The position numbers and the translations under genes are program-made. 64,000 bases of DNA from Thioalkalivibrio sp. (GTDB taxonomy: Bacteria > Pseudomonadota > Gammaproteobacteria > Ectothiorhodospirales > Ectothiorhodospiraceae). Shown piece by piece: positions 13,576 to 56,862 of this stretch (positions are counted from its first letter, which is position 1; the number at the start of each line of letters is the position of its first letter). Under the pieces are notes generated by a model. It was not told the DNA's origin. It worked only from the letters and a program-made list of their open reading frames with translations, and made no database searches. Location of the stretch: contig SKJG01000076.1 in NCBI GenBank assembly GCA_007116035.1, forward strand, positions 72,855-136,854. Direction: 5' to 3'.

Positions 13576-13624
13576 AGGGCGCCGCCCGGAAGCGCCGATC
13601 GAGGCCCCGAGCCGGACCAGCCAT

Positions 13625-14770: not shown

Positions 14771-15052
14771 GGGCTCAGGGTCTTGCTGCCGTGTGAATGG
14801 AAGCAGCCGGTTCGCGCGCAAGGCGCGCTCCTGCGGTTCGGCCAATGCACTGCAAGAGGGCACCTCGTGGGCGCAAGCGCCGGAGCAAGGCGGGCAAGTG
14901 CAGGAACAGTCCCCCGATTGCAAACTTGCCCAGCGCAACGCCGGCGCTTCTGGCGAAGCGATCGGGTACCGAACCTCCCGCATGGCCCACTGGACACCGA
15001 TCCGCTCCAGGGCACGGACCGCGGAAAAGCAGGCTGCAGGATCGCCGAGGGA

Positions 15053-16180: not shown

Positions 16181-16410
16181 CCGTGTAGTGTAGCCCGAGC
16201 CTGCCTGCGGTGGGTATTGTTCCGACTATCCTGCCCTGCGCGATGGTTTATCTTCCTGACCAATTTTCTCGCCCGCTTCGATCCCGAGATACGCGGCGAG
16301 GAATCGGCGAAAGCCCGGTGCAATCGTTTTCGCAAACGAACGGCGTATCATGAAAGGTAGCTGACCGTGCCCCGGAGAGACGCCGTCTTCACGGGCCGGA
16401 AGGAGGTGTC

Positions 16411-18465
16411 ATGTCCGGTACCGGGCAACACGCAGGGTTTTCACCAGCCAACCTTCCAGACCACGACCTGTCGCGGATGCTCCTCGACAGCCTTACAACG
16501 GGCGTCTTCGGCATCGACCTCGCAGGCAGGTTCACCTTCCTGAATCAGGCCGCCACACGGCTGTTCGGCTTCGACACCGCAGAGGCCGTTCTGGGCAAGG
16601 AGAGCCACTCCGTGACCTGCCATGCCAACGATCTCGGGATCCGTTACGAGGGTTCGGAGTGTCCGATCTATCGCGTGATGTCCACCGGCAAATCACTGGA
16701 GAGCGGCACGGACACTTTTCGACGTGTCGACGGCAGCCCTTTCTTCGCACATCTGCACGCGGCACCGCTGAGGGACGGCGATGGCGAGGTCTGTGGCGCG
16801 GTCGTGGCCATCGAGGACATCACCGAGCGCCTCTTCCGGGAACGCACACTGGCCCAGTACAAGGCCGTGTTCGAGGCCGCCCGCGATGCGATCGTACTGC
16901 ACGACCAGCGCGTCATCGTGCACTGCAATCCTTCCAGCGTTGCCCTGTTTGGCGCCCACGCGCCAACCGATCTGATCGGCCGCCATCCCGGCGGCTGCTC
17001 GCCGGAATTCCAGCCCGATGGGAGACCCTCGCGGGAGGCCGCGGATGCCTATACGAAACAGGCGCTGGCGGAAGGTTCGGTGGCGTACGAATGGCTTTGT
17101 CAGGCGCTCGACGGACGCACCTTTCCGAGCGAGGTGATGCTCAGTCGGGTCGATATTCCCGAGGGTCCGATCCTGCAGGCGGTGATCCGCGACATCACGG
17201 ACAGGCAGAGGGCCGAACGGGCACTGCGCCGCAGCGAGTCCGAACTGGCTGCCGCGCAGGAGATCGCGCAACTCGGCAACTGGGCCTGGGACATCGCCAG
17301 CGGAACGATCGCCTGGTCGGATGAAGTCTACCGCATCTTCGGAGTACAACCCGCCAACTTCAGCCCGAATTACAGTGACTTTCTGCGTTTCGTTCATCCG
17401 TCGGACCGGGAACGGATCACCACCGCGATCGACCATGCACTCAGCGGTCCGGGTGACTACGACCTCGAACACCGCATCCTTCGCGCCGATGGCAGCCAGC
17501 GCACGATTCATCAACGGGGCCGGATCGTGCGCGACCCAACGGGAAGGCCATTGCGCATGCGGGGCACCGTCCAGGACGTGACCGAACGCCGGATCCTGGA
17601 AGACCAGCTTCGTTACGAGCGCGATCTCGGGGAGCGGGTCCTCGAGGGGCTGCCCGCGATCTTCTTCCTCCTCGATGCGGGAGGACGCCCGATCCGCTGG
17701 AACCGGAATCTCGAAACGGTCATCGGCGTACCCGCCGACGGGATCGGCGGACACAGGGCCATCGAAGCCGTCGATCCGGCCGACCGGCACCGGGTTGCCG
17801 CAGCGATCCAGAAAACATTGCGCGAGGGGTCGGGCGATGTCGAGGCGGGGCTCGTGTCGCACAACGGCTGGCCGATCCCGTATTACTTCACGGGCAATCG
17901 GGTCGAGCTGGCCAACGAGGTCTTCCTGGTCGGCTTTGGAGTCGATCTCTCGGAGCGCAGGCGCCTGGAGTTGGAGTTGGCACGCCAGGCCTCGCACGAC
18001 AGGCTAACCGGCCTCTACAATCGCTGGAAGTTCGAAGAGGCCCTGAACCTGGAGACGGAGCGCGCCCGTCGCTACGGAACGGCGTTTTCCCTGGTCATGT
18101 TCGACATCGACTGGTTCAAGGAGGTCAACGACACCTTCGGGCACGACGTCGGAGACGCGGTACTCCAGAAAATGGCCGCGGTGGTGGGTCAGCAGATCCG
18201 CCGCACCGATATACTGGCGCGGTGGGGCGGTGAGGAATTCATGATCCTGCTGTCGGAGACCGGCCTGGAGCACGCGACACGGCTCGCGGAGGCCACGCGT
18301 CGCCGGGTGGCGCAGGCGGACTTTCCCGGCCCGGCCCGACTGACGATCAGTCTCGGGGTTACGCAATACCTGCAGGGTGAAACGATATCCACCCTGCTCA
18401 AGCGCGTGGACAAGGCGATGTACGAGGCCAAGCAGCGCGGACGCGACCGCACCGTCGCAACATGA
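16411..18465 (+). CDS. Multi-PAS/PAC sensor diguanylate cyclase (GGDEF)
   Basis: 684 aa with a GGAGG RBS. It has repeated PAS/PAC-like blocks and a C-terminal DRLTGLYNR...RRTDILARWGGEEF, i.e. an intact GGEEF with an RxxD I-site. Confidence 0.9.
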   Translation: MSGTGQHAGFSPANLPDHDLSRMLLDSLTTGVFGIDLAGRFTFLNQAATRLFGFDTAEAVLGKESHSVTCHANDLGIRYEGSECPIYRVMSTGKSLESGTDTFRRVDGSPFFAHLHAAPLRDGDGEVCGAVVAIEDITERLFRERTLAQYKAVFEAARDAIVLHDQRVIVHCNPSSVALFGAHAPTDLIGRHPGGCSPEFQPDGRPSREAADAYTKQALAEGSVAYEWLCQALDGRTFPSEVMLSRVDIPEGPILQAVIRDITDRQRAERALRRSESELAAAQEIAQLGNWAWDIASGTIAWSDEVYRIFGVQPANFSPNYSDFLRFVHPSDRERITTAIDHALSGPGDYDLEHRILRADGSQRTIHQRGRIVRDPTGRPLRMRGTVQDVTERRILEDQLRYERDLGERVLEGLPAIFFLLDAGGRPIRWNRNLETVIGVPADGIGGHRAIEAVDPADRHRVAAAIQKTLREGSGDVEAGLVSHNGWPIPYYFTGNRVELANEVFLVGFGVDLSERRRLELELARQASHDRLTGLYNRWKFEEALNLETERARRYGTAFSLVMFDIDWFKEVNDTFGHDVGDAVLQKMAAVVGQQIRRTDILARWGGEEFMILLSETGLEHATRLAEATRRRVAQADFPGPARLTISLGVTQYLQGETISTLLKRVDKAMYEAKQRGRDRTVAT

Positions 18466-20202: not shown

Positions 20203-22431
20203 ATGATCAATTCGATTAGCGTTCTGTTCATCACCCTGGATCCCGATCTGGCCGGGCAGGTCATCGGCCGCATCCGCTACCGGGGCCACGCGGTCCGGCC
20301 GAAACAGGCCGGCAACGCACGGGACCTCGAGCGTCTGTTGCAGAGCCATCGCTTCGATGCCGTCGTGCTGATCGACGGCGATATGGACATCGGGCTGGAG
20401 GAACTGACCGAGACCCTGCACCGGGCCGGGCGTCAGACCCCCATCGTGATGCTGACCGACCGCGCACAGGAACTGCGCCTGAGCGCGGTCGAAGGCGGCG
20501 CCTTCGCGGTGGTGGACACCGAGAATCACGACGTGGCGGCGGCGATGACGCTGAAGGCCGTCGAGTACCTCAACAAGGGTCGAGAGATCAACCATCTCCG
20601 GACACTGCTGCAGGAAGCAGACCGGCGTTACCTGCTGATGCTGGACAGTTCCCGCTACCCGATCGCCTGTTTTCACGAGGGCGTCGCGACCTATGCGAAC
20701 GACACGTGGCGGAATTGCTTCGAAATGGAACTCAGCGAGAGCCTGGACCGGCTGACCCTCCAGGACCTCGTGATCCCCGATCAGCATGAAGACCTCGCCC
20801 ACCTCCTGCGCATTCGTCAGAACCAACCCGAAAACGTGGAGACCTGCGAGACGCTGACCCTGCGGACCCGTCGCGGACAGACCTTCGACGCCGACCTGCT
20901 CCTGACTGGAGCCGTCATCGGGGGGCAACCCTGTACTGTCGTACACCTCTCGTTTACGGGAGGAGAACCCGCACTCCAGGAACTGAACGGTCCTGCCATG
21001 AAGCCGCTCGGCCATGACCGCAGTCCAGGTCCACCCTCCGGATCGGAAGGGCATACCACGCCGCGAACGGACACGGGAGCCGCACGCGCAAGGCCCAGCG
21101 AAGGGGCCAGGCGCGACGAGCCGGCAAAGCCAGAGGACAGGGCCCAAGTGCCCCGCCCACCGGATGAGCCGCGCGTGGATCCAGCCGAGCTGCAACGGGA
21201 ATTCCTCCGGGCAGTCGAAAGGACCCTGGCAGACACCGCCCGCTCGGAGCGTCCGCTCGGTCTCGTGGTGTGCGCGCTGGATACCCGTGACAGGCAGCCG
21301 GGGGACTCGCCCGACGCCCTTGGCAGCGCACTTCAGCGCAGCCTGGCGATGACCCTTCCCCGCTCCGCAACCGTTGCCGTCCTGGAGAGGGGCCACTGCG
21401 GAATCCTTCTGGCCGACACCAACCGCACGGCGGTCGAAGCGCAGCTTGACACCCTGGTGAAGCAGGTCCAGGGGCAGGCGATCCCCCTCGACGATGGCGG
21501 CACGGTCACCGGCTCCCTGGCCTGCGGCGCCGTGCTGGCGGACGACACGGAGTCCTCCGCGCAGGAACTGCTGGACCGGTGCCATCAGGCGCTTGCCGAG
21601 GCCCGTGCCAGCGGTGGCGGCTGTTACCGTTTCCGCATGCCGCCCGGCATCCAGCAAAGCGATCCCGAAGCCGACGGGATCTGGAAGACCCGCGTCGAGG
21701 AAGCGTTGCAGAAGAACGGCTTGAAGCTCCTGTATCAGCCCATTGTCAGCCTGCAGGGGGACGACGCCCCGCGATACGACGTCTTCGTCCGCCTCGAGAC
21801 CGAGGGTGGGGAGGCCTACGAGCCCAACGAGTTTCTGCCCGCGATGGAACGCAGCGGCGTCGCAGCCCCGCTCGATCGATGGATCATTCAGCACGCGGTC
21901 ATCGCATTGTCCGAGCAGTTGCAGCGCGACCCGCGCACCACCTTTTTCGTCAGGCTCAGCCAGGGGTCCCTGGACGCACAGGCGGTCGTGACCTGGCTGC
22001 AGGAGTTCCTCGAGCATTCCCAGGTTCCAGCGGGGAACATCGTCGTGGAATTCAAGGAAGCGACGATACTGACGCAGCTGGACAGCGCGGGGGCGACGGC
22101 CCAGGGCCTGAAGGCGCTGGGCGTGGGACTCTGCATCGGGGACTTCGGCAACGGGCTTGATCCGTTCACGATTCTGGGGCAGGTGGATGCGGGGTACATC
22201 AAGCTCGACGGTGGCTATATCAGCCGCCTGGCCAGCGACCATTCCGCGCAGGAATCCGTGCGGCAACTCACCGAGACCGCCCATGCGAGCGACCGGCAGG
22301 TCATCGTCCCGATGGTCGAGGACGCCGATACCCTGACCCACCTGTTCAGTGTGCAGGTGAACCTGGTGCAGGGATACTTCGTGCAGCCGCCCAGTGAGCA
22401 GCTGGATTTCGACTTCGCAAGCGGGCTCTAA
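20203..22431 (+). CDS. FimX-like c-di-GMP sensor: REC-like / PAS / degenerate GGDEF / degenerate EAL
   Basis: 742 aa. The GGDEF position reads ERGHC (21385-21399). The EAL position reads DVF (21778-21786). Other EAL-fold signatures are kept: YQPIV, DRWI, GDFGNG, IKLDG, VQGYF. Confidence 0.85.
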   Translation: MINSISVLFITLDPDLAGQVIGRIRYRGHAVRPKQAGNARDLERLLQSHRFDAVVLIDGDMDIGLEELTETLHRAGRQTPIVMLTDRAQELRLSAVEGGAFAVVDTENHDVAAAMTLKAVEYLNKGREINHLRTLLQEADRRYLLMLDSSRYPIACFHEGVATYANDTWRNCFEMELSESLDRLTLQDLVIPDQHEDLAHLLRIRQNQPENVETCETLTLRTRRGQTFDADLLLTGAVIGGQPCTVVHLSFTGGEPALQELNGPAMKPLGHDRSPGPPSGSEGHTTPRTDTGAARARPSEGARRDEPAKPEDRAQVPRPPDEPRVDPAELQREFLRAVERTLADTARSERPLGLVVCALDTRDRQPGDSPDALGSALQRSLAMTLPRSATVAVLERGHCGILLADTNRTAVEAQLDTLVKQVQGQAIPLDDGGTVTGSLACGAVLADDTESSAQELLDRCHQALAEARASGGGCYRFRMPPGIQQSDPEADGIWKTRVEEALQKNGLKLLYQPIVSLQGDDAPRYDVFVRLETEGGEAYEPNEFLPAMERSGVAAPLDRWIIQHAVIALSEQLQRDPRTTFFVRLSQGSLDAQAVVTWLQEFLEHSQVPAGNIVVEFKEATILTQLDSAGATAQGLKALGVGLCIGDFGNGLDPFTILGQVDAGYIKLDGGYISRLASDHSAQESVRQLTETAHASDRQVIVPMVEDADTLTHLFSVQVNLVQGYFVQPPSEQLDFDFASGL

Positions 22432-27978: not shown

Positions 27979-28264
27979 TCTGTCACGCGCGCCGACCCGC
28001 TCTGCCGTCAGCGCTGGACGCAAGAACTCCGAGCGCGGCCAGCATGGCATCGTCGCCGCCTTCTGATACTCTTCGGTATGATGAAACCCGTCGCCAATGC
28101 AGGGCGATCCCGAATCATGGGGTGGCGGACGGGCAGGGGGCCTTCTTGCTGAACGGACATCATTGCATCCGGAGCGTGCCGATGACACTTCGGGAGGTGC
28201 CGGATGGGGCTGTGCCTGAAGCCTCCCGCCGGTGCGGATGGGTGCGCAGGGTTCAGGAATCCGG

Positions 28265-30337
28265 ATGTCACAGAACATAGAGTCCATCAACGTCCTCTTC
28301 GTGACGCGCGAACCCGAACTCGCGGAGCGCCTGATCAGCTGCGTCCGGATGCGCGGCCGGACGGTCCGCGCGTACCAGGCGGCGGACCGGGCTGAACTGG
28401 AGGAGCGATTGCTGTCGCATCGATTCCACATCATCGTGTTGATCGATTCCGGCATGGACGTAGGCACCCATGATGTCATTGGCGCGCTGCAGAATTCCGG
28501 GCGCCTCACGCCGGTACTGGTGATGACCGACCGGCCAGAAGACGAGCGCGTAGCCGACTACGAAGCCGGCGCCTTCGCCGCCATCAGCCGCGGCCCCGAC
28601 GACGTCGCGGCCATCCTGATTCTCAAGGCGGTGGAATTCCATCTCTGCTGCACCCAGATGCACCGTCTGCAGAGCACCCTGCAGGCGGCTGAACGACGCC
28701 ACCTGCGCCTGCTCCAGGAATCCCCCGAGCCGAACGCCTGTTTCCGGCACGGAAAGATCCTGAATGCCAACGACGCGTGGCGGGAATACTTCAAGATCGA
28801 CACCAGCGAGGACCTGTCCGACTATGGCCTGGGCGACTTCGTCATTCCCCAGCAGCAGGACACGCTACAACAACTGGTGGAAACACGGGCCATTCAGAAC
28901 GACAGCGGCGAGACCCGCCAGACCTTCAGCCTCAGGACAGCGCACGGGCGCAGCTTCGAGGGCGATCTGGTCCTGACCGGCGCCAGCATCGATGGAGAGG
29001 CCTGCGCCGTACTGCGGGTCGTGACCAGCGCCGAAAACGACGCCTCGGAACAACTGTCCGCGATCGACCCGGTCACCGGTCTCCACAACCGCCAGCACCT
29101 CTTCCAGACACTGGAGGGGGTGCTGGCCGCATCGGCACGCGCCGAACTTCCCTTCGCCCTGATCGAGGCGTCAGTGGATGACTTCGAACGGCTTCAAGCC
29201 ACGCTGGGGACGGGCAGTTCGGACATCCTGTTGACCGATATCGGCCTGTTGCTCAGGGAGCACTTCCCCCCTCCGGCGACCGTGGCACGCCTGGGCAACG
29301 AAGACTTCGGCATCCTGGTGCCCAGCGCGCGGCGGACGGAACTCGATCAACGGCTTGCCGCATTGGTGCGGGCCGCCACCGCGAGAGAAATCAATCTCGA
29401 CAAGGGGTCCACGGTCGTCTCCCTATCCTGCGGTGCGATCATCGCGGATGATTCGGCTCCGACGATCGAAGGCTTGCTCGACCAGGCCGCGCGGGCCCTC
29501 GACGGGATCCGCCAGGCTGGCGGCAACGGCTACGCCTTCCAGCACATCCTCTCGGACGCCCATGCCCGGGCCGAATCGGATCAACAGTGGAAGGCACGTA
29601 TCGAGGACGCCATCGCCCACCAGCGGCTGCGACTCGTGTATCAACCCGTGGTGAATCTCCACGGCGGGGATTTTCCGCGCTTCAGTGTCTTCATGCGCGT
29701 GACAGGTCCCGATGGCGAAGTCTACGATCCGAGCGACTTCCTGCCCGCCGCCGAAAGGACCGGGTTGGCGGCCACGATAGACCGCTGGATCATCAGTCAT
29801 GCAATTCAGGCCCTGGCGGCGCGCCTGAAGTCGGATTCCAGGACCACGTTTTTTTTGAAGCTGACCCGGGGTTCCCTGCTCGACGGGTCGGTCGTCGTCT
29901 GGCTGCAGAAGTTCCTGCACAAGCAGCGGGTTCCAGCATCGAGGGTAGTGGTGGAGATCAAGGAGGCGACCATCATCACGAACCTGAAATCGGCGATCGG
30001 CACCGCTCGGGGCCTGAAAGCGATGAATGCTTCGCTCTGTATCGACGACTTCGGCAACGGGCTCAATCCGTTTCACATCCTCCGCCATGTCGATGCCGAC
30101 TACATCAAGCTCGACGGCGCCTTCGTGCGCGACGTCGTCAGCAACGAAAGCAGCCAGAAAGCCATCCGCCGCTTTACCGAAGGCGGACATGCCAAGGGCA
30201 AGCAGATTGTCGTGCCGATGGTCGAGGATGCCGCCACGCTGGCCGTTCTATTCAGCCTGAACGTCAACCTGGTACAGGGCTACTTCGTCCATCCACCCAG
30301 CGAGCAGATGGACTTCGATTTCACCCAGGTGATCTGA
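28265..30337 (+). CDS. FimX-like c-di-GMP sensor paralog: REC-like / PAS / degenerate GGDEF / degenerate EAL
   Basis: 690 aa from ATG 28265 (MSQNIESINVLFVT). The GGDEF position reads GNEDF (29294-29308). The EAL position reads SVF (29684-29692). Colinear with the 20203-22431 protein along its whole length. Confidence 0.85.
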   Translation: MSQNIESINVLFVTREPELAERLISCVRMRGRTVRAYQAADRAELEERLLSHRFHIIVLIDSGMDVGTHDVIGALQNSGRLTPVLVMTDRPEDERVADYEAGAFAAISRGPDDVAAILILKAVEFHLCCTQMHRLQSTLQAAERRHLRLLQESPEPNACFRHGKILNANDAWREYFKIDTSEDLSDYGLGDFVIPQQQDTLQQLVETRAIQNDSGETRQTFSLRTAHGRSFEGDLVLTGASIDGEACAVLRVVTSAENDASEQLSAIDPVTGLHNRQHLFQTLEGVLAASARAELPFALIEASVDDFERLQATLGTGSSDILLTDIGLLLREHFPPPATVARLGNEDFGILVPSARRTELDQRLAALVRAATAREINLDKGSTVVSLSCGAIIADDSAPTIEGLLDQAARALDGIRQAGGNGYAFQHILSDAHARAESDQQWKARIEDAIAHQRLRLVYQPVVNLHGGDFPRFSVFMRVTGPDGEVYDPSDFLPAAERTGLAATIDRWIISHAIQALAARLKSDSRTTFFLKLTRGSLLDGSVVVWLQKFLHKQRVPASRVVVEIKEATIITNLKSAIGTARGLKAMNASLCIDDFGNGLNPFHILRHVDADYIKLDGAFVRDVVSNESSQKAIRRFTEGGHAKGKQIVVPMVEDAATLAVLFSLNVNLVQGYFVHPPSEQMDFDFTQVI

Positions 30338-46702: not shown

Positions 46703-46825
46703 CGTTGGCGTGAAAAAATACAGCCACGGAAGAACACGGACATCACGGAAAACGAAGGGCATTTAAACTCTTTCCCGAGTGTTTCTGTGTCCTTCCGTGG
46801 CGCCCCTTTTCCTCGTCAGGGGTGG
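46703..46825. repeat. CACGGA-hexamer palindromic element, copy 1 (MITE-like)
   Basis: The 77-nt core at 46724-46800 has left arm CCACGGAAGAACACGGACATCACGGAA and right arm ending TTCTGTGTCCTTCCGTGG. It is flanked by a conserved A-run and a T-run plus TCGTCAGGGG. Highly similar to 54988-55110. Confidence 0.75.
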
Positions 46826-51502: not shown

Positions 51503-53371
51503 ATGACGCCGTCTTCCGGACCCAGCGAGAACGATGCCCCATTGGGCGTGGAAGTCCTGCGCCGCCATGGCCTGCGGCGTCAGCCCTTTGCCGACAAGGC
51601 AACCGAGGGCTTCGTGTATAGCGATCCCGCCCTCGACATGCCGGTCGGGGTGCTGCAACAGCGCCTTCAGACCGACAACAAGCCACTATTGCTGCTCGGT
51701 GAGCATGGCGCAGGGAAGAGTACGCAACTGCTGCAACTCCTCTCACGGGGAGCGGGATCCCTGCTCTTCTGCGGTTTCAAGGGCCGGCCGGGGGCACCTT
51801 TCCCAAGTATTGAATACGCCATTCGACAGCAGTGGTCCAAGGCGGCGGATGCGGCCGAAAACACACCGCTGGCTGGGCTGCTCCTGACCCTCTGCCGGGG
51901 CGCACGGCGTCCGGTGCTCGTGATCGACGATGCCCACGTACTCGCGCCAGAGGTTCTGGCGGCGCTCCTGCGACTGCGCCGCGAGGTGAATCGCCACTGC
52001 AGCAGCGCCCTGGGCATATTGCTCGCCGGCGAACCCGGTCTCGAGGATCTGCTGGCACAATGCGTCGATGCCGACACGCCCGCGGAAAAGCACATCGCCG
52101 TCCGCCTTCGGCCCCTGACTCAGGCCCAGACCGAGGCCTATCTTCGGCAGCGCCTGCAGGCGGCCGGTGCGCAGGACCCGAGTCTGCTCTCCGGCGCGAT
52201 CGCCGCCGCGATCCAACAGGAAAGCGGCGGCCGGCCCATGGACATCAACCTCGTGGCCAACCGTTATCTGCAGACCATGGGGACGGACCCGGCCTCGGTG
52301 CAGCAAGGACCCGTGCACGCGGCTCCCGGCACGACCTGGACCGGCTGGCAGCAGCGCTGGACACTGCCTGCAGCGGGGGGCGCGGCTGCCGTATTGGCAA
52401 CGCTGATCGTGGTGGGACTCCTCTACCTGCCGGGAGACGAGGGGCAGCGGCCCGGCAATGCGGCTACGCCGCAGCAACCCAGTGGCACCGCCGTCTTGAG
52501 AGAAGCCCCGGCAGAGCCGCCCTTGCTGCCGACGCCCGATCGTCCGTTCGCGGCGGAGTCACCGGACGCCCAGCCAACCATCCGCGAATCAGCCGCGCCC
52601 ACCACCTCGCGGCCCATGCCGCGACCGCTCGAGTTCTCGGAAGCGCTCCCAGATCCGGAAGCCACCGATCTCCCGGACCCAGGTTCGGAAGCGACCACGG
52701 GCGAGGGAACGTTCCCGGAGCCCGAACCGATACCGCAACTCGCCGAGATTTCCCCGATCGACCCGGAACGCGCTCGGGAGCCTGCCGAGGCCCCTGCCTC
52801 GGAGCCCGAACCCGCCAGCGAGGTCGCCGAGGCCTCCCGCTTGGAACCGGAGCCCGAGATCTCCGTGCTCAGCCCTGGGGAGCCAACCCCCGTGCCCGTG
52901 CCCACCCGCGAGGACACAACCGCACCGCAAGCGGGCCCACAGGTGACGGAACCTCCCGCAGAGGAACCCGATACGCCTCAGACGCAACCAACGGATGGCG
53001 CAGGGATCCCGGGGTCACCTTCGGCCGACACTCCGAACGCGCAACCGCGCCCCGCGCCGGCACGTCGCGAGCTGCGCGATCCGACCTGGCTGCAGGACCG
53101 GGCCGCAGATCGTTTCACCATCCAGATCATTGCCGGTGGCGACCTCGAGGCCCTGCGCAGGTATGCAGGCCGGCTGTCCCTGGACAAGGAAATCGCCTGG
53201 TTTCGAACACGCCGGGACGATCAGGACTGGTATGCCCTTGTGGCAGGCGATTACCCCGACCTGGCTGGTGCCCGCGCGGCGGTCAACAGACTGCCCGCCG
53301 GCGTTCGCCGCAACCAGCCCTGGATCCGAACCTTCGGATCGGTCCAGGAAACCATGGCTCCAGGCCCCTAA
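51503..53371 (+). CDS. ExeA-architecture protein: cytoplasmic AAA ATPase / single TM / Pro-Glu-rich linker / C-terminal SPOR domain
   Basis: Walker A is GEHGAGKST and Walker B is VLVIDDAH. The TM segment is AAVLATLIVVGLLYL. A ~220-aa P/E/A-rich tract follows. The C-terminus RFTIQIIAGGDLEALRRYAG...WYALVAGDYPDLAGARAAVNRLP is SPOR-like. Confidence 0.8.
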   Translation: MTPSSGPSENDAPLGVEVLRRHGLRRQPFADKATEGFVYSDPALDMPVGVLQQRLQTDNKPLLLLGEHGAGKSTQLLQLLSRGAGSLLFCGFKGRPGAPFPSIEYAIRQQWSKAADAAENTPLAGLLLTLCRGARRPVLVIDDAHVLAPEVLAALLRLRREVNRHCSSALGILLAGEPGLEDLLAQCVDADTPAEKHIAVRLRPLTQAQTEAYLRQRLQAAGAQDPSLLSGAIAAAIQQESGGRPMDINLVANRYLQTMGTDPASVQQGPVHAAPGTTWTGWQQRWTLPAAGGAAAVLATLIVVGLLYLPGDEGQRPGNAATPQQPSGTAVLREAPAEPPLLPTPDRPFAAESPDAQPTIRESAAPTTSRPMPRPLEFSEALPDPEATDLPDPGSEATTGEGTFPEPEPIPQLAEISPIDPERAREPAEAPASEPEPASEVAEASRLEPEPEISVLSPGEPTPVPVPTREDTTAPQAGPQVTEPPAEEPDTPQTQPTDGAGIPGSPSADTPNAQPRPAPARRELRDPTWLQDRAADRFTIQIIAGGDLEALRRYAGRLSLDKEIAWFRTRRDDQDWYALVAGDYPDLAGARAAVNRLPAGVRRNQPWIRTFGSVQETMAPGP

Positions 53372-53465
53372 CCGTCTCCGCTCCGGCCAGGCCTCGTGCC
53401 CTGGTCGCGACACTCCTGCAGCGGCTGGCCGCCAAGACGGCATCGGTAGCGCGACCGGACGATGG

Positions 53466-54107
53466 TTATCGCTCGAGCAACAGGGCCCTGCCCTGCCGCT
53501 GGACCTGAACCCGGTTCAGGAAGCTTGCGCCCAGAACCGGAAGCCGCGGTGCGTCCGACTGCAGCACCACGGCCTCGACGTCGTCCAGCACGATGCCACC
53601 GATGCGCACCTGGTCAAGCATCACCCGGTATCCGAATGACAAGCCAGCCGCGGTGCGCGTCTGGGTGAGGTCGCCACGGGCGTAGGCGATGCCCAGACGG
53701 CGCGCCTCGCCGGCGCCCAGAGTCGTGATGGGGGTGTCGGTGTCCACCAGGAAACGAACCGCATGGCCGTTGATGCTGCCCGCCGCGGTCAGGGCCCCGG
53801 AGGCATCCGGGTACACACGCGCCTGAGCAACCGAGTCGCCCCGGGACGCGCCTTCCGTCCGCCGCACCGAGGTGACTTGGCGGCGCTCACCTTGAATCTC
53901 CAGCCAGGCCGTGCCCGTGCGGGTATCAGACGACAGCAGCCGCACGCCCTCCGTGGCGTCCGCCCCCATCATCAACACGTGGCGCTGCCCGTCGATCTCG
54001 ACCAGCACCCGGTCCGGGAAGACTCCCAGCAGCATTGGCTCCCGGGCGAGCAGCGGCGCGCAGCTAAGGCTGACGACAAACAACACCAGGCCGAGGACTC
54101 CGCGCAT
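53466..54107 (-). CDS. Retropepsin-like (TIGR02281-type) aspartic protease homolog with a DTD motif and an extra N-terminal domain
   Basis: 213 aa from ATG 54107, 8 nt after the upstream gene's stop. It has an N-terminal hydrophobic anchor. The sequence INGHAVRFLVDTDTPITTLGAGEARRLGI...VLGASFLNRV matches the bacterial retropepsin-like pattern, but the DTGA motif reads DTDT (53736-53744). Confidence 0.7.
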   Translation of the reverse strand: MRGVLGLVLFVVSLSCAPLLAREPMLLGVFPDRVLVEIDGQRHVLMMGADATEGVRLLSSDTRTGTAWLEIQGERRQVTSVRRTEGASRGDSVAQARVYPDASGALTAAGSINGHAVRFLVDTDTPITTLGAGEARRLGIAYARGDLTQTRTAAGLSFGYRVMLDQVRIGGIVLDDVEAVVLQSDAPRLPVLGASFLNRVQVQRQGRALLLER

Positions 54108-54115
54108 CCGGGAAA

Positions 54116-54937
54116 TCAGTCCGCCCAATCCACGCGGACGTGGATCTCGGTCTCCCCGGCGCCCTGATCCCGGCGCGTGCCCAGCACGCGACGCTCGGTC
54201 GAATCGCGTCGGTGCTCGACACCGGCGATCCGGATCCATTCGCCGATGCCACCGGAAAGCACGGTGTCGACGCGCTGGAAGTCGATACGGCCACCACCGC
54301 TGCGGCTCTCACGCTCGTCCACCTGCTGGATATCGATCCGCACCCGGCCATCCGGGGTGGCCCACGGGCGCACGAGGAATCCACGCTCCAGGTCGCGGTA
54401 GTCGATCTCCGGCCCGACCACGGCACCGGGAAGAACGATGCCGCCGTGGCGCAGGACGGGGATGGACTCACCCGCATGGATGAAGGCCGCTTGCCCCTCG
54501 AGTACGCGCAGAGTCTGAACGCCGCTGTCGCGGTCGTTGGTCTGGCGGCGGATGATCCGGCTCCCCGACCCGTCGCCCACGGCCACGTCGCCGATGCGTC
54601 CCTGCAGTTGCGCCTCGCGCTCGCGGGTCGTTTCGGTACCGCCGCGCCGGACACTGACCACCAGATTCCTGGGAACCGTATCGACCGTGCTGAGTACGTC
54701 ACGCAGCTGGCTCAGTGTCGCCGGGGCCACACGGACGATCAGCCGAAACCCCGTCCCCGTAACGACATCATCGGGACCCAGCAGGGGTTCGATCAGCGGG
54801 ATGATCTCCGCAGCGGGCCGGTTCTGGAGATCGATGATCTCGATCGATTGCTGCGCAGCGCCCTGTGTCGCGGGAAGGCACAGGAACAGGATCAATAGGA
54901 GCCAGCAGGACAGATTCTTCATGGGCGCGGACATCAC
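54116..54937 (-). CDS. Minimal secretin-like protein (signal peptide + Secretin_N-like domain + secretin-core-like domain)
   Basis: 273 aa, or 268 aa from the alternative ATG at 54922. The signal peptide is MKNLSCWLLLILFLCLPATQGAAQ. IEIIDLQNRPAAEIIPLIEPLL..FRLIVRVAPATLSQLRDVLSTVD resembles a secretin N (NolW-like) domain. QTLRVLEGQAAFIHAGESIPV..IDYRDLERGFLVRPWATPDGRVRIDIQQ..DTVLSGGIGEWIRIAGV resembles the secretin core. Confidence 0.65.
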   Translation of the reverse strand: MMSAPMKNLSCWLLLILFLCLPATQGAAQQSIEIIDLQNRPAAEIIPLIEPLLGPDDVVTGTGFRLIVRVAPATLSQLRDVLSTVDTVPRNLVVSVRRGGTETTREREAQLQGRIGDVAVGDGSGSRIIRRQTNDRDSGVQTLRVLEGQAAFIHAGESIPVLRHGGIVLPGAVVGPEIDYRDLERGFLVRPWATPDGRVRIDIQQVDERESRSGGGRIDFQRVDTVLSGGIGEWIRIAGVEHRRDSTERRVLGTRRDQGAGETEIHVRVDWAD

Positions 54938-54987
54938 GGTTCAGGTTCCAGAGGCACCACCGGTCGAGACGGCGCTGAGATGCACAA

Positions 54988-55110
54988 TAACGCAACGCAA
55001 AAAAATAGCCACGGAAGAACACGGACATCACGGAATATGACCGGTATTCAAGCTCTTTTCCGTGTGTTTCTGTGTTCTTCCGTGGCGCGCTTTTTCATCG
55101 TCAGAGGTCG
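54988..55110. repeat. CACGGA-hexamer palindromic element, copy 2 (MITE-like)
   Basis: The 77-nt core lies at 55009-55085. Its left 27 nt are identical to copy 1. CACGGA occurs three times in the left arm, and TCCGTG/TCTGTG three times in the right arm, at 9-10 bp spacing. Located between the divergent secretin-like operon and the fliK-like gene. Confidence 0.75.
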
Positions 55111-55240
55111 TCGCGGTACGTTATTTAGACCGGCAAAAAGAAGGGGAATTCAGGCCACCACCGTATCCATGCCCGCCTTGCCTTCGCGATGTACGCCGGC
55201 AGGTAGTACGATGGAACGTCTTCGGCCCGTCGGGTGACGC

Positions 55241-56584
55241 ATGCAGATACCGCCCCCCGCCCTGAAGGCCACCCTGGCCAGCCCCAGCCCGCGGGCGCCG
55301 GATTGGCAAGCGGGGCAGCGATTGGAGGCCCAGGTAGTCCGCGGCAGCGCTACCGGGGAACAGACTCGGGTCCGGATCGGCGACCAGGAGCTGAGCATGC
55401 GCTTGCCGACGGCAATGCCTCCGGGCAGCCGTCTGAGCCTCGAGGTGGTGCGGGCGGGAGCGCAGCCGTTGCTGCGGCTGCTGGCTCAACCTCCCGTCCC
55501 GCAGCCGTCGGCAGGCCAAGTCGGGATCGGGCCTGGTACAGGGGCGCCTGCCGCACTGACCAGCCTGCTTCCGGCCCAGGGTAGTCAGGCGCCCCTGCTG
55601 GCCGCCCTGTGGTCGATGAGCCGCGACCCCGGGGCCACAATGGCCCTGCCGGGATCAGTACAGGCGGCCATCAAGGATCTCTTCGGGCGCCTGCACACGG
55701 CGACGCAAGCGACGCGGCCGGAGGGTCTGCGCCAGGCGGTACTGGCATCGGGCATCTTCCACGAGGCCGCCCTCGCCGTCGGCCCCGCGGGTTCCGCCAC
55801 GACTGCTGGAGACCTGAAATCGGCCCTCCTCTCCCTGGCAACGCAGCTGCGCGCGCAGCACAGACCGGCGGGCCAGGGCCACGCCGCCGTGCAGACCAAG
55901 CCCGGCGGCGGCGTGGCCAGCGCAGATACCGCGCCGGCGCACCGACTCCCCACTCCGGCTACGTCCACCGCAGCCTCTTCCGCCCGCGCGCTGCCTCAGA
56001 CCGTCGTCCTCCCAAACTGGATCATCGGATCCGCTCGCGAGGCTGTCCCGCCGCGCGCTGGATCCCCCCCAACGCCGCAGGCGCGCCTGACCGCGGACCT
56101 CTCCACCCCGGGACCGCAGGCGCTGCTCGACGGGCTTCGCGCCAGCACCGACCAGGCCCTCGCCCGTCTCGCCCTGCACCAGTGGAGCGCCGTGGAAAAT
56201 GCCGAATCCGGACAGTTGCGATGGCTCCTGGAGTTGCCCCTGCGAAGCGGCGATGGTGTGGATCTGGTTCACCTTTTGATGGAGCGTGAGCGCGAACGCA
56301 GTGGCCCGGACCAGACCCCGGTCTGGCGGGTGGAGATGGCCCTCGACCTTCCTGGCGTCGGACCCGTGCACGTGCGCATCACGGTCTCCGGAGATCAGGT
56401 TGGGACCCACCTTTGGGTCGACGACGAGAACACGGTCGCCCGGGTCCGCAGGGAGTTGCCGAGACTCCGCGAGGCGCTGGAAGGCCGCCAGCTGGAGGTC
56501 AGGGACCTGGGCTGCGCCCCCGGCAAGCCTCCGGAGCAGCAGCCCCCGGTTCGGACCCGGCCCGTGTTGGACGATCGCGCATGA
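55241..56584 (+). CDS. Flagellar hook-length control protein FliK-like
   Basis: 447 aa, Pro/Ala/Gln-rich. The C-terminal WRVEMALDLPGVGPVHVRITVSGDQVGTHLWVDDENTVARVRRELPRLREALE matches the Flg_hook (FliK C-terminal) pattern. Confidence 0.65.
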   Translation: MQIPPPALKATLASPSPRAPDWQAGQRLEAQVVRGSATGEQTRVRIGDQELSMRLPTAMPPGSRLSLEVVRAGAQPLLRLLAQPPVPQPSAGQVGIGPGTGAPAALTSLLPAQGSQAPLLAALWSMSRDPGATMALPGSVQAAIKDLFGRLHTATQATRPEGLRQAVLASGIFHEAALAVGPAGSATTAGDLKSALLSLATQLRAQHRPAGQGHAAVQTKPGGGVASADTAPAHRLPTPATSTAASSARALPQTVVLPNWIIGSAREAVPPRAGSPPTPQARLTADLSTPGPQALLDGLRASTDQALARLALHQWSAVENAESGQLRWLLELPLRSGDGVDLVHLLMERERERSGPDQTPVWRVEMALDLPGVGPVHVRITVSGDQVGTHLWVDDENTVARVRRELPRLREALEGRQLEVRDLGCAPGKPPEQQPPVRTRPVLDDRA

Positions 56585-56862
56585 GCCGGGAGCCACGACG
56601 ACCACCGCGCAAGGCAGTGGCCCTGCATTACGGCGGCGAACGGGCGCCGCGCATCACCGCCAGCGGCAGCGGTCTGATCGCGGAACGCATCCTCGAGCTT
56701 GCCCGTGAACACGATGTCCCGGTGCACGACGATCCCCTGCTCACTGCAGCGCTGTCCCAGGTCCCGGTGGGGGATGAAATCCCCGAAAACCTCTACGTGG
56801 CAGTAGCCGAGGTCCTGGCCTTCGTCTATTTTCTCAGCGGCCGCAGGCCGGGCCAGGAATAG
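56581..56862 (+). CDS. FlhB C-terminal-domain-like small protein (EscU/YscU/HrcU family fragment type)
   Basis: 93 aa with an ATGA overlap on the upstream stop. The sequence AVALHYGGERAPRITASGSGLIAERILELAREHDVPVHDDPLLTAALSQVPVGDEIPENLYVAVAEVLAFV matches the FlhB-CTD fold family that lacks the NPTH autocleavage site. Confidence 0.75.
   Translation: MSREPRRPPRKAVALHYGGERAPRITASGSGLIAERILELAREHDVPVHDDPLLTAALSQVPVGDEIPENLYVAVAEVLAFVYFLSGRRPGQE

What the first reader, a model, noticed from the sequence alone, without database searches (positions are those of the whole stretch)
51503..54937. Candidate undescribed envelope module: minimal secretin plus retropepsin-like partner, facing an ExeA-architecture AAA/SPOR protein
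Three neighbouring genes each resemble one piece of secretin-assembly machinery, yet no T2SS, type IV pilus, injectisome or filamentous-phage genes accompany them.

(i) 54937-54116 encodes a ~270-aa exported protein with one secretin-N-like domain and a secretin-core-like C-terminus.

(ii) Eight nt downstream, so in the same operon, 54107-53466 encodes a membrane-anchored protein. Its first ~60 periplasmic residues (LLGVFPDRVLVEIDGQRHVLMMGADATEGVRLLSSDTRTGTAWLEIQGERRQV) have the small beta-domain look of GspC-HR/PilP secretin-binding domains. This is fused to a retropepsin-like domain.

(iii) Convergent with this operon, 51503-53371 has the topology of ExeA/GspA: a cytoplasmic AAA ATPase, one TM segment and a periplasmic peptidoglycan-binding domain. 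Here that domain is SPOR rather than the ExeA PG-binding domain.

ExeA is established as a peptidoglycan-linked assembly factor for the ExeD secretin in Aeromonas. Linking the three genes here is inference: the AAA/SPOR gene is on the opposite strand and could be an unrelated DamX-like protein.
Basis: partly seen in the sequence, partly recalled or inferred. Interest (0 to 1): 0.7.

Follow-up and report, generated by a model that had tools for sequence, protein, structure and literature searches.

The report
Orphan mini-secretin with decayed protease partner
A Thioalkalivibrio-type bacterium carries a two-gene operon for an unusually small secretin-like envelope protein and a retroviral-type protease look-alike that has lost its catalytic signature; the pair is real and uncharacterised, but the neighbouring ATPase gene is probably not part of it.

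Summary
All three genes exist as described. The 273-aa protein C (54116-54937, minus strand) is a true secretin homologue. It has a signal peptide, one Secretin_N domain and a condensed secretin core, but no N0 domain, no C-terminal amphipathic-loop segment and no S domain. It belongs to a large uncharacterised family of about 260-300-aa proteins (1237 clusters at E<=1e-30).

Protein B starts 8 nt downstream (53466-54107, minus strand). It is a TIGR02281 retropepsin-like protein with a small N-terminal beta domain that resembles GspC/GspB HR domains only weakly. In the clade where B follows the mini-secretin, the catalytic DTGA motif has decayed (DTDT here) in nearly every member. All 41 unlinked homologues keep D[TS]GA. 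Both genes are under purifying selection.

The B-C pair is strictly linked in 15 loci, but only in Thioalkalivibrio-like genomes. Mini-secretins elsewhere have other neighbours, often GNAT/DUF7931.

The AAA_22-TM-SPOR gene A (51503-53371, plus strand) is always adjacent in that clade, but the whole region is syntenic. An orthologue lies beside fliK with no pair, and a paralogue follows pilMNOPQ-aroK-aroB.

Verdict: a clade-specific mini-secretin/pseudo-protease unit. The three-gene ExeA-like module is not supported.

The parts
54116..54937 (-). Gene C: mini-secretin, 273 aa from the GTG start. An ATG at 54922 would give MKNLSCW…. It is an exported protein.
   Evidence: ORF. The family profile matches GspD/PilQ/pIV structures at E 3.8e-21. 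All 40 PDB Foldseek matches at E<=0.001 are secretins. dN/dS is 0.17 against L001.
54851..54937 (-). Signal peptide of C, about residues 1-29. The hydrophobic core is LSCWLLLILFLCLPATQGA. There is no canonical lipobox.
   Evidence: Hydropathy maximum at residues 9-27. AF2 models a helix at 7-24. Homologues have comparable N-termini.
54644..54850 (-). Secretin_N (N1/N3-type ring-building) domain of C, residues 30-98.
   Evidence: pLDDT is above 90 with a beta-alpha-beta-beta-alpha-beta order. The profile matches the XcpQ N1 region at 26.5 bits. 22 of 26 homologues hit PF03958.
54521..54643 (-). Variable charged and Gly-rich linker of C, residues 99-139. It replaces a segment that is about 41 residues longer in XcpQ.
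   Evidence: pLDDT is below 50. There is a 41-residue gap in the alignment to 5wln. Its length varies among homologues.
54125..54520 (-). Condensed secretin core of C, residues 140-271. It contains the GESIP and GEWI motifs and a final strand EIHVRVD. The polar segment at 238-264 replaces the conserved C-terminal part of the secretin domain.
   Evidence: Pfam Secretin positions 15-130 of 169 match residues 142-248. PHROG pIV matches at E 4e-7. Alignments to XcpQ and ExeD stop at query position 245-247. Sequence of 238-264 shown.
53466..54107 (-). Gene B: exported or anchored protein, 213 aa, with an HR-like beta domain and a retropepsin-like domain. It is translationally coupled to C.
   Evidence: 8 nt lie between the TGA of C and the ATG of B. 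TIGR02281 scores 73 bits. dN/dS is 0.19 against L001. B always follows C, in 15 loci.
53868..54038 (-). N-terminal six-strand beta domain of B, residues 24-80. The motif LLGVFPDRxLV is nearly invariant in the pair-linked clade. It is weakly similar to GspC/GspB HR domains.
   Evidence: AF2 models strands between residues 25 and 79 at pLDDT around 90. T2SSC and T2SSB hits occur in homologues only. Invariant columns cluster in this domain.
53472..53825 (-). Retropepsin-like domain of B, residues 95-212.
   Evidence: The family profile matches ApRick/APRc 5c9b at E 4e-18. Foldseek gives 5c9f at TM 0.80.
53733..53744 (-). Degenerate active-site motif D122-T-D-T. The ancestral motif is DTGA.
   Evidence: Alignments. 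The pair-linked clade shows DTDT, DTDA, DTEA, DPGT, DPGA, DRQA, DREA, DRSA, DPDA, DPDT, DLDA and DAGS, with one DTGS. All 41 unlinked homologues have D[TS]GA.
51503..53371 (+). Gene A: AAA_22 ATPase, one TM segment, Pro/Glu-rich linker and SPOR domain. It is convergent with the B-C operon. It is a neighbour and probably not a component.
   Evidence: Pfam hits. Walker motifs and the TM segment. The orthologue in L025 lies beside fliK without B-C. The paralogue in L026 follows pilQ-aroK-aroB.
54938..55240 (.). Divergent intergenic region between C and fliK. It contains an insertion of about 135 bp specific to this window, which carries one copy of a 110-nt repeat and a sigma-54-like TGGC-N7-TTGC motif at 54997-55011 (-).
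   Evidence: The motif and the insertion are absent from the 92%-identical relative L001.

Best explanation
Genes C and B form a clade-specific two-gene operon encoding a periplasmic or outer-membrane protein pair.

**Shown**
- C is an exported member of a large uncharacterised family of mini-secretins. It has one ring-building N domain and a condensed secretin core. It has no N0 domain, and the conserved C-terminal part of the secretin domain is not detectably matched. Nothing follows the final strand, so there is no S domain.
- B descends from the widespread TIGR02281 family (hydrophobic N-terminus, small beta domain, retropepsin domain).
- B is translationally coupled to C and is found next to C in every locus of its clade.
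- In that clade B has lost the DTG catalytic signature while staying under purifying selection. Its N-terminal beta domain is the most conserved part.

**Inferred**
- C oligomerises through its N domain and secretin core into a small secretin-like ring. The ring sits at or under the outer membrane, without a trans-envelope machine attached.
- B no longer acts as a protease. It acts as a dimeric scaffold, clamp or assembly partner that docks onto C. Docking is most likely through the HR-like beta domain, loosely as GspC, GspB and PilP dock onto their secretins. The contact must differ, because C has no N0 domain.
- Gene A is a DamX-like, ExeA-type ATPase that binds peptidoglycan. It was already at the edge of the flagellar cluster, and the pair lies between it and fliK. 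A is most likely not a dedicated component of the pair.

The physiological output of the pair is unknown.
For: **C is a secretin homologue**
- The family profile matches PDB secretins at E 3.8e-21.
- 23 of 26 homologues hit Pfam Secretin and 22 of 26 hit Secretin_N.
- All 40 PDB Foldseek matches at E<=0.001 are secretins.
- The family is large: 1237 clusters at E<=1e-30, and the best 150 are all 240-351 aa long.

**Missing parts of C**
- Only about 65 residues lie between the signal peptide and the core.
- The N domain matches the N1 region of XcpQ, not N0.
- Pfam Secretin positions 131-169 are unmatched, and residues 238-264 are polar and disordered.

**The pair is linked**
- Spacing is 8 nt here. 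In L023 and L027 the two genes overlap by 4 nt.
- C lies directly upstream of B in the window, L001, L002, L022, L023, L027, L028-L031 and L034-L038.

**Catalytic motif decay in B**
- Every pair-linked sequence lacks DTG except L038, which keeps DTGS.
- All 26 and all 15 unlinked homologues keep D[TS]GA.

**Both genes are functional**
- dN/dS is 0.17 for C and 0.19 for B at unsaturated dS of about 0.3.
- Invariant columns of B concentrate in the N-terminal domain.

**A is independent**
- L025 carries a 620-aa AAA_22/SPOR orthologue directly beside fliK, an flhB-like gene and DUF2802, with no B-C pair.
- L026 carries a paralogue after pilMNOPQ-aroK-aroB-HD.
- The whole segment MotB … PpiD is syntenic in the clade.
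Against: - No direct evidence shows that B and C interact or that C oligomerises. No multimer prediction could be run.
- The HR-like assignment is marginal. This protein gives no Pfam hit itself, the domain profile finds no PDB match, and hhalign against a PilP sequence gives nothing.
- Asp122 is invariant, and some clade members keep Gly (DPG, DAG) or the full DTG. Residual or unusual catalysis cannot be excluded.
- A closely related mini-secretin (L024, 58% identical) and all more distant ones work without B. B is therefore not needed for the family's basic function.
- A is adjacent in 14 of 14 pair-bearing loci whose contig extends that far. This includes loci where fliK (L002, L034, L035) or the HDOD-GGDEF flank (L027) is missing. 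A link to A is therefore not excluded.
Confidence: 0.5

Rival explanations
1. Three-gene assembly module. A is the ExeA/GspA analogue: an ATPase anchored to peptidoglycan through SPOR. B is the ExeB/GspB analogue: an HR-like domain that binds the secretin. Together they insert the mini-secretin C through the peptidoglycan layer.
For: - A has the order AAA_22, TM segment, PG-binding domain.
- Homologues of B hit Pfam T2SSB and T2SSC.
- GspA and GspB act together on secretins, and SPOR occurs on the Legionella secretin LspD (PMC9239104).
- A is adjacent in all 14 pair-bearing loci where the contig reaches it.
- A paralogue of A lies near the pilQ secretin operon.
Against: [quoted passage not shown]
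- An A orthologue sits beside fliK with no B-C pair (L025).
- The whole region is syntenic, so adjacency is inherited.
- None of the 13 mini-secretin loci outside the clade has an A-like or B-like gene within 8-10 kb.
- C lacks the N0 domain that all known HR domains bind (PMC9239104).
- A carries SPOR rather than PF01471.
Confidence: 0.15
2. B is still an active, unusual aspartic protease. It processes C, for example in the disordered linker at residues 99-139 or the polar 238-264 segment, or it processes other envelope proteins. The HR-like domain targets it to its substrate.
For: - Asp122 is invariant across all 37 aligned sequences.
- The fold is close to the active enzyme APRc.
- One pair-linked member keeps DTGS, and several keep Gly.
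- Secreted bacterial retropepsin-like enzymes are active in P. aeruginosa, although they belong to a different family, RloA (PMC12239564).
- Two distant mini-secretin loci have a different peptidase (M61 with a PDZ domain) downstream.
Against: - At least eleven different replacements of the Thr-Gly positions occur among close relatives, including DRQ, DRE, DRS, DPD, DLD and DTD. All 41 unlinked homologues keep D[TS]GA. This is the pattern of relaxed catalytic constraint.
- From general knowledge of clan AA enzymes, the Gly of DTG is needed for the active-site loop geometry and the dimer 'fireman's grip'.
Confidence: 0.15
3. The B-C adjacency has no functional meaning. Two unrelated exported proteins were brought together once in an ancestor of this clade and have stayed together by inheritance.
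For: - The pair occurs in only one clade, inside a block of conserved synteny.
- Each family is found without the other elsewhere.
Against: - The two genes are tightly coupled, with 8 nt spacing or a 4-nt overlap, kept down to 46% identity.
- B's catalytic motif changed specifically in the linked clade, while its N-domain became highly conserved.
- Neither gene has been lost singly in 15 loci.
Confidence: 0.12
4. The pair is an accessory of the polar flagellum, for example an extra periplasmic or outer-membrane ring. It lies inside the motility gene cluster next to fliK.
For: - C is divergent from fliK, and the cluster flhB-like gene, DUF2802, motB and motA follows.
- The same position is kept in 12 or more loci.
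- A sigma-54-like motif lies upstream of C in the window.
Against: - Mini-secretins outside the clade are not in flagellar clusters.
- The sigma-54-like motif lies in an insertion specific to this window and is absent from the 92%-identical relative.
- L025 has the same flagellar cluster edge without the pair.
Confidence: 0.08

Closest known systems
Secretins of T2SS, T4P, T3SS and filamentous phage (GspD/XcpQ 5wln, PilQ 6w6m, InvG, pIV 7ofh)
   Same: - C has a Secretin_N ring-building domain followed by the secretin core.
- Recognisable motifs are …LEGxxAFIxxGESIP…, …RGFLVRP… and …GEWIxI….
- The profile E-value is 3.8e-21, and the top Foldseek hits are exclusively secretins.
   Different: - C is about 245 aa when mature. 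The phage pIV chain 7ofh_A, one of the shortest full secretin chains matched here, is 414 aa.
- C has no N0 domain and a single N domain.
- A linker that is about 41 aa shorter follows the first core strand.
- The conserved C-terminal part of the secretin domain (Pfam positions 131-169) is unmatched. By recollection this part includes the amphipathic helical loop.
- C has no S domain and no lipobox.
- No secretion, pilus or phage genes were found nearby.
P. aeruginosa PA2633 (UniProt Q9I0K5, 'Secretin_N domain-containing protein')
   Same: - It is probably a member of the same mini-secretin family.
- A Pseudomonas MAG homologue (L013) sits after JmjC and GNAT genes, like other distant family members.
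- PA2633 was detected in a surface-shaving proteome (PMC8959810).
   Different: - Membership was not verified by sequence here.
- No retropepsin partner is adjacent in the Pseudomonas-type locus.
- No function is published in the papers found.
TIGR02281 clan AA aspartic proteases and Rickettsia APRc/ApRick (5c9b, 5c9f)
   Same: - B scores above the TIGR02281 cut-off.
- It shares the retropepsin fold with APRc (E 4e-18; TM 0.80).
- It has an N-terminal hydrophobic segment.
   Different: - The DTGA motif is replaced by DTDT and is variable in the clade.
- B carries an extra HR-like beta domain.
- B is coupled to a mini-secretin gene, whereas other family members stand alone in housekeeping contexts.
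HR domains of GspC, GspB/OutB/ExeB and PilP
   Same: - A small all-beta domain of about 60 residues follows a hydrophobic N-terminal segment.
- The gene lies next to a secretin gene.
- Some homologues reach the Pfam T2SSC threshold (27.4 bits against 27) or hit T2SSB weakly.
   Different: - This protein gives no hit itself, and there is no PDB or PilP match.
- Known HR domains bind the secretin N0 domain (PMC9239104), and C lacks N0.
- The domain is fused to a retropepsin-like domain. I know of no such fusion in GspB, GspC or PilP.
ExeA/GspA
   Same: A has a cytoplasmic AAA+ ATPase with Walker A and B motifs, one TM segment and a periplasmic peptidoglycan-binding domain.
   Different: - The PG-binding domain is SPOR rather than PF01471.
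- No cysteine-peptidase-like region was detected.
- There is no co-oriented gspB gene and no T2SS.
- The gene is convergent with the pair.
- An orthologue is present without the pair.
DamX and the AAA_22+SPOR proteins found downstream of pilQ-aroK-aroB
   Same: - The C-terminal SPOR domain is closest to E. coli DamX (2LFV, E 1.6e-8; NF008153 partial hit).
- JGI names the homologues 'DamX protein'.
- The T. denitrificans paralogue follows pilMNOPQ-aroK-aroB.
   Different: - By my recollection E. coli DamX has no AAA domain.
- A is about 110 aa longer than the pilQ-linked paralogue.
- A sits at the edge of the flagellar cluster.

Membership tests
Secretin superfamily (PF00263 / PF03958) | C-terminal secretin core domain | tested here: met
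   The single sequence scores 20.4 bits, below the gathering score of 27.5. However, 23 of 26 homologues hit PF00263, the family profile matches XcpQ at E 3.8e-21, and all 40 PDB Foldseek matches at E<=0.001 are secretins.
Secretin superfamily (PF00263 / PF03958) | Secretin_N (N1/N3-type) ring-building domain | tested here: met
   22 of 26 homologues hit PF03958, best E 9e-14. The profile matches the XcpQ N1 region at 26.5 bits. pLDDT is above 90.
Secretin superfamily (PF00263 / PF03958) | N0 domain, which docks the inner-membrane partners GspC, GspB, PilP and SctD | tested here: not met
   Only one domain of about 65 aa lies between the signal peptide and the core. No STN or N0 Pfam hit was found in C or in 26 homologues.
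Secretin superfamily (PF00263 / PF03958) | Conserved C-terminal segment of the secretin domain (by recollection the amphipathic helical loop region) and an S domain or lipid anchor | tested here: not met
   Pfam positions 131-169 are unmatched. PDB alignments stop at query position 245-247. Residues 238-264 (AGVEHRRDSTERRVLGTRRDQGAGETE) are polar with pLDDT below 50. No lipobox is present.
Secretin superfamily (PF00263 / PF03958) | Gene lies within a T2SS, T4P, Tad, T3SS or filamentous-phage cluster | tested here: not met
   No such genes were seen in the window ORFs or in the annotated loci L014, L016, L022-L024 and L027. No viral relatives were found.
Secretin superfamily (PF00263 / PF03958) | 12-15-mer double-walled gated beta barrel in the outer membrane | not testable with these tools
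   Only a monomer model was possible (pLDDT 66.5). No multimer prediction or experiment is available.
TIGR02281 clan AA (retropepsin-like) aspartic protease | Score above the NCBIfam cut-off, and a retropepsin fold | tested here: met
   73 bits against a cut-off of 57.95. APRc 5c9f superposes at TM 0.80, rmsd 1.9 A.
TIGR02281 clan AA (retropepsin-like) aspartic protease | Catalytic D-T/S-G-A motif | tested here: not met
   The motif is DTDT in the window. It is degenerate in all pair-linked relatives but one. All 41 unlinked homologues keep D[TS]GA.
GspC / GspB / PilP HR domain | Sequence or profile match to T2SSC (PF11356), T2SSB (PF16537) or PilP | tested here: inconclusive
   This protein gives no hit. 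Of 22 homologue N-domains, 6 hit T2SSC (best E 9e-5) and 8 hit T2SSB. The profile finds no PDB HR-domain match. hhalign against PilP of L026 gives nothing.
GspC / GspB / PilP HR domain | [quoted passage not shown] | tested here: not met
   The adjacent secretin homologue has no N0 domain. Binding itself was not testable.
ExeA / GspA | Cytoplasmic AAA+ ATPase, single TM segment and a periplasmic region | tested here: met
   AAA_22 matches at E 1e-10. Walker A starts at residue 66 and Walker B at 138, and the TM segment is at about 288-309.
ExeA / GspA | Periplasmic PG-binding domain of family PF01471 | tested here: not met
   The only periplasmic Pfam hit is SPOR, PF05036.
ExeA / GspA | Co-located gspB partner and a T2SS secretin | tested here: not met
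   A is convergent with B-C. No T2SS genes are present. An orthologue occurs without B-C.
DamX (NF008153) | Equivalog score, and a C-terminal SPOR domain | tested here: inconclusive
   SPOR is present (38 bits; 2LFV at E 1.6e-8). The NF008153 score of 43.6 is far below the 256 cut-off, and only the C-terminal part aligns.

The most novel reading that the evidence does not exclude
The 260-300-aa mini-secretins may be a separate, stand-alone class of secretin-derived envelope rings that works outside any known secretion, pilus or phage machine. The HR-like domain of TIGR02281-type retropepsin proteins may be what targets those proteins to such rings in general. On this reading the Thioalkalivibrio operon is the 'Rosetta stone' that exposes the partnership. 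There the protease has become a pure structural subunit, and the ExeA-like SPOR ATPase next door acts as the peptidoglycan-linked assembly factor.
Probability: 0.12. Interest if true: 0.8.

Novelty: new variant of a known kind. Interest (0 to 1): 0.5.

Why it matters
Secretins are studied almost only as the outer-membrane gates of large machines (T2SS, T4P, T3SS, filamentous phage). This window points to a very large and essentially unstudied family of half-size secretin homologues. They lack the docking (N0), membrane-loop and pilotin-binding parts and are not encoded with any such machine. A likely member exists in P. aeruginosa.

The Thioalkalivibrio operon gives the first candidate partner for one of them. 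It also gives a clean natural example of a bacterial retropepsin turning into a pseudo-enzyme after becoming coupled to another gene.

If the pair forms a complex, it would show what the minimal secretin core can do on its own, and how HR-type domains can recognise something other than N0. For now this is a well-supported gene-pair observation with no known phenotype.

Tried and rejected
They were rerun with narrower alignments.
- **A 251-aa gene upstream of an unlinked B homologue** (L019) was tested as a hidden mini-secretin. hhalign found no relation.
- **HR-like domain of B.** The domain profile against PDB sequences gave no GspC, GspB or PilP hit. The only secretin-related line was the PilQ-binding protein TsaP (6ve2_O) at a non-significant E of 0.32. 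hhalign against a PilP sequence was null. The Foldseek listing for the whole B model showed only aspartic-protease and retropepsin folds, so the N-domain fold could not be searched alone.
- **Sigma-54 promoter idea.** TGGC-N7-TTGC at 54997-55011 is the only match outside the ORFs called. It lies in an insertion of about 135 bp that the 92%-identical relative lacks. It was rejected as a conserved regulatory feature.
- **Phage origin.** No relatives were found in IMG/VR. PHROGs gave only the generic pIV hit.
- **Homologue search for A** was swamped by its low-complexity linker and returned only Thioalkalivibrio-type hits. The wider distribution of AAA_22+SPOR proteins was therefore not measured.
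- **RloA secreted retropepsins of P. aeruginosa** were considered as the family of B. They are RimB-type (a different family) and keep DTG (PMC12239564).
- **Pseudogene or decay reading** for B and C was rejected from dN/dS of 0.17-0.19.

Full report

Yes. The three ORFs lie at the stated coordinates.

Gene A (51503-53371, plus strand, 622 aa) has Pfam AAA_22 at residues 59-184 (E 1e-10) and SPOR at 536-610 (E 2e-9). Walker A (GEHGAGKS) starts at residue 66 and Walker B (VLVIDD) at 138. One hydrophobic segment lies at about 288-309, followed by a 226-aa linker rich in Pro, Glu and Ala. Its SPOR domain is closest to E. coli DamX among solved structures (2LFV, E 1.6e-8).

Gene B (53466-54107, minus strand, 213 aa) starts 8 nt after the TGA of gene C. 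It scores above the cut-off of NCBIfam TIGR02281, the clan AA aspartic proteases (73 against 57.95 bits).

Gene C (54116-54937, minus strand, 273 aa) has an N-terminal signal peptide. As a single sequence it scores only 20.4 bits on Pfam Secretin, below the gathering score of 27.5.

fliK begins about 300 bp from C, followed by an flhB-like gene, DUF2802, motB and motA; the translations also show a fliA-type sigma factor, a MinD/ParA-type ATPase and flhF beyond them. The rest of the window reads as ordinary chromosomal DNA from the ORF translations (for example DnaK- and DnaJ-like starts).

**2. The mini-secretin (C)**

The sub-threshold hit becomes firm at family level.

- 42 homologues were found, mostly in Thioalkalivibrio and Ectothiorhodospira.
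- Of 26 aligned members, 23 hit Secretin and 22 hit Secretin_N.
- The family profile matches P. aeruginosa XcpQ at E 3.8e-21, and then ExeD, PilQ, GspD, pIV, RcpA, BfpB and InvG.
- An AlphaFold2 model has mean pLDDT 66.5, with the N domain above 90. All of its 40 PDB Foldseek matches at E<=0.001 are secretins.
- A profile search of 1.84 billion cluster representatives gave 1237 clusters at E<=1e-30. The best 150 are all 240-351 aa long. This is therefore a large family of genuinely short proteins, not a truncation.

C keeps one Secretin_N domain (residues 30-98). The core motifs align with the GspD region around the 'VGQNVPF' motif, which I recall as the central-gate region, and a final strand EIHVRVD is present.

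Several parts of a full secretin are missing:

- There is no room or signal for an N0 domain.
- The segment after the first core strand is about 41 residues shorter than in XcpQ and is predicted disordered.
- Pfam Secretin positions 131-169 are unmatched. From memory this region carries the conserved P-x-L-G-x-I-P-x-L-G-x-L-F amphipathic loop. The corresponding residues 238-264 are highly charged.
- There is no S domain and no lipobox.

Whether such a protein can cross the outer membrane is open.

**3. The retropepsin-like partner (B)**

The C-terminal domain matches the Rickettsia retropepsin APRc (profile E 4e-18; Foldseek TM 0.80, rmsd 1.9 A). The model has pLDDT 87.5.

The N-terminal 60 residues form six beta strands at pLDDT around 90. 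Two homologues reach the Pfam T2SSC threshold (27.4 and 27.0 bits against 27). Of 22 N-domains scanned alone, 6 hit T2SSC and 8 hit T2SSB. The window protein itself gives no hit. A domain profile finds no HR structure in the PDB, and hhalign against a PilP sequence is null.

The N-terminal hydrophobic stretch ends in …CAPLLA|REP and could be a cleavable signal peptide rather than an anchor.

The most informative result is the active site.

- All 26 distant homologues aligned, and all 15 unlinked metagenomic homologues, have D-[TS]-G-A.
- The clade that sits next to a mini-secretin shows DTDT (window), DTDA, DTEA, DPGT, DPGA, DRQA, DREA, DRSA, DPDA, DPDT, DLDA and DAGS.
- One member of that clade (L038) still has DTGS.

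So the ancestor was catalytic, and the motif has decayed repeatedly since the gene became coupled to C. The gene is not decaying as a whole. dN/dS against the closest relative is 0.19, compared with 0.17 for C and 0.27 for FliK, at dS of about 0.3. The N-terminal domain carries most of the invariant columns (LLGVFPDRxLV…).

**4. How far does the gene arrangement extend?**

I used a genome scan (13 loci), contig look-ups and a metagenome scan with the B clade (26 loci). These were analysed with tblastn, HMM searches and phmmer.

| Locus type | Loci | Neighbours found |
|---|---|---|
| B homologues at 46% identity or more | window, L001, L002, L022, L023, L027, L028-L031, L034-L038 (15 loci) | C directly upstream wherever the contig extends |
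| Mini-secretin, Ectothiorhodospira | L003-L006 | No B or A within 10 kb; in L003 and L006 a proteasome-like gene lies next to it |
| Mini-secretin, 58% identical homologue | L024 | No B or A |
| Mini-secretin, distant Gammaproteobacteria | L008-L010, L014, L015 | Follows GNAT and/or DUF7931 genes, often after purB or a JmjC gene |
| Mini-secretin, Pseudomonas MAG | L013 | Follows JmjC and GNAT genes |
| B homologues at 42% identity or less | L017-L021, L039-L053 | Stand alone, e.g. after thiL-pgpA in L017, L019 and L020; no mini-secretin within 6 kb |

The supporting calls for the mini-secretin contexts are 14, 18, 22, 33, 40 and 74. P. aeruginosa PA2633 is listed as a 'Secretin_N domain-containing protein' in a surface proteome (PMC8959810). 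It is probably a family member, but I could not check its sequence.

The pair is therefore a real co-inherited unit, but a lineage-specific one.

**5. The AAA_22/SPOR gene (A)**

A is adjacent and convergent in all 14 pair-bearing loci whose contig reaches it. However, the whole block MotB, DUF2802, (FlhB-like, FliK), C, B, A, HDOD-GGDEF, UPF0047, PpiD is syntenic across the clade. Adjacency therefore carries little independent weight.

Two look-ups bear on A's independence:

- A 620-aa orthologue (36% identity over 98% of its length) lies directly beside fliK, an flhB-like gene and DUF2802 with nothing in between (L025). No mini-secretin or B-type HMM hit occurs on that locus.
- In T. denitrificans a 507-aa paralogue follows pilMNOPQ-aroK-aroB-HD (L026). 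I recall damX lying after aroK-aroB in E. coli; this was not tested here.

JGI names these proteins 'DamX protein'. A is thus an ExeA-type ATPase fused to SPOR, with a life of its own at the edge of the flagellar cluster. The B-C pair lies between A and fliK in one clade.

A functional link is not excluded. Adjacency survives loss of fliK in L002, L034 and L035, and loss of the HDOD flank in L027. A paralogue again sits near a secretin operon. But nothing positive supports a link.

**6. Comparison with known systems**

In T2SS, GspA (AAA+ ATPase, TM segment, PF01471 PG-binding domain) and GspB (TM segment, HR domain) are usually encoded together. They help the secretin through the peptidoglycan. 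All characterised HR domains (GspC, GspB, PilP) bind the secretin N0 domain. Legionella LspD carries a SPOR-like domain itself (PMC9239104; PMC4098917 is listed).

The present genes resemble that system only in outline:

- C lacks N0.
- B's HR assignment is marginal, and it is fused to a decayed retropepsin.
- A has SPOR rather than PF01471 and is transcribed convergently.

I therefore do not file the locus as a GspA/GspB/GspD variant. C is a secretin-superfamily member of an uncharacterised short subfamily. B is a TIGR02281-derived pseudo-protease. A is DamX-like and ExeA-like.

Literature searches for secretin with retropepsin, for small, orphan, truncated or mini-secretin, and for PA2632, PA2633 or DUF7931 found no description of either family's function or of the pairing.

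**7. Most likely mechanism**

C is exported and, like other secretins, oligomerises through its N domain and core into a small ring at or beneath the outer membrane (inferred). B is made in stoichiometric coupling and exported. It dimerises through the retropepsin fold and docks on C, using its strongly conserved beta domain and/or its now non-catalytic peptide-binding cleft. It acts as a scaffold or assembly partner rather than as a protease (inferred from the motif decay together with purifying selection).

A binds peptidoglycan through SPOR and probably serves another role. Its recurrent position is next to fliK or to pilQ-aroKB, so a role at the cell pole or in a trans-envelope machine is conceivable.

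Confidence is about 0.5 that the functional unit is B-C without A. Confidence in the specific docking model is lower.

**8. Verdict**

The locus is a new variant within known kinds (secretin superfamily and clan AA), with no known function. Interest is moderate at 0.5. The widespread mini-secretin family and the enzyme-to-pseudo-enzyme transition are worth a specialist's attention. The proposed three-gene ExeA-like module is not supported by comparative evidence.

Noticed in passing
window 46714-46823 and 54999-55108: A 110-nt direct repeat at 85% identity lies in two intergenic regions. The second copy sits inside an insertion of about 135 bp upstream of the mini-secretin gene, and the 92%-identical relative L001 lacks that insertion. 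The copy carries a sigma-54-like TGGC-N7-TTGC motif at 54997-55011 (-). No Rfam family matches. It may be a small mobile or repeated intergenic element.
   Followed up: partly
L026 1-9524 (Thioalkalivibrio denitrificans MVBK01000097.1): A 507-aa AAA_22+SPOR paralogue of gene A closes the cluster pilM-pilN-pilO-pilP-pilQ-aroK-aroB-HD. From memory, this is the position damX occupies after aroK-aroB in E. coli. The ExeA-like/SPOR architecture therefore recurs next to a genuine secretin operon.
   Followed up: partly
L025 8001-11851: A 620-aa orthologue of gene A lies directly upstream of fliK and an flhB-like gene, in the same orientation, with no mini-secretin/retropepsin pair. This raises the question of whether this ATPase has a flagellum-related or polar role.
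   Followed up: no
L008, L009, L010 (about 9435-10880); L014 5266-7041; L015: In distant Gammaproteobacteria the mini-secretin gene directly follows a cytoplasmic-looking DUF7931 protein. The stop and start codons overlap in L008-L010, and the DUF7931 protein is fused to a GNAT acetyltransferase in L014 and L015. purB or a JmjC-type gene often lies upstream, and an M61 peptidase with a PDZ domain lies downstream in L008 and L010.
   Followed up: partly
L012 4232-5669 (Thioalkalivibrio MAG SKOF01000344.1): The order is GNAT, DUF7931, then a 104-aa ORF consisting only of a signal peptide and a Secretin_N domain, 42% identical to the N-terminus of C. This looks like a truncated or frameshifted copy at the 'ancestral' DUF7931-linked position. 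The fliK-side copy may therefore be a relocated paralogue.
   Followed up: partly
L003 and L006 (Ectothiorhodospira), about 9900-17300: In both loci the mini-secretin gene is followed by a 268-aa proteasome-type (Anbu-like) protein (Pfam Proteasome on the L003 copy). The large genes further on were not scanned and are unannotated; the operon looks unrelated.
   Followed up: no
window 22129-22416 and 30035-30322: A 288-nt direct repeat at 70% identity lies inside two paralogous large genes (20203-22431, 742 aa, and 28232-30337, 701 aa) with similar N-termini. These are probably duplicated signalling proteins.
   Followed up: no
window 56413-56862 (+): A stand-alone FlhB C-terminal-domain protein (TIGR00789 flhB_rel, 86 bits, below the cut-off) is encoded right after fliK and overlaps its 3' end. 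The same fliK and flhB-like gene pair recurs in the related loci.
   Followed up: no
P. aeruginosa PA2633 (literature): PA2633 (Q9I0K5) is listed as a 'Secretin_N domain-containing protein' among surface-shaved proteins of cystic-fibrosis isolates (PMC8959810). It is a candidate experimentally tractable member of the mini-secretin family. This was not verified by sequence.
   Followed up: partly
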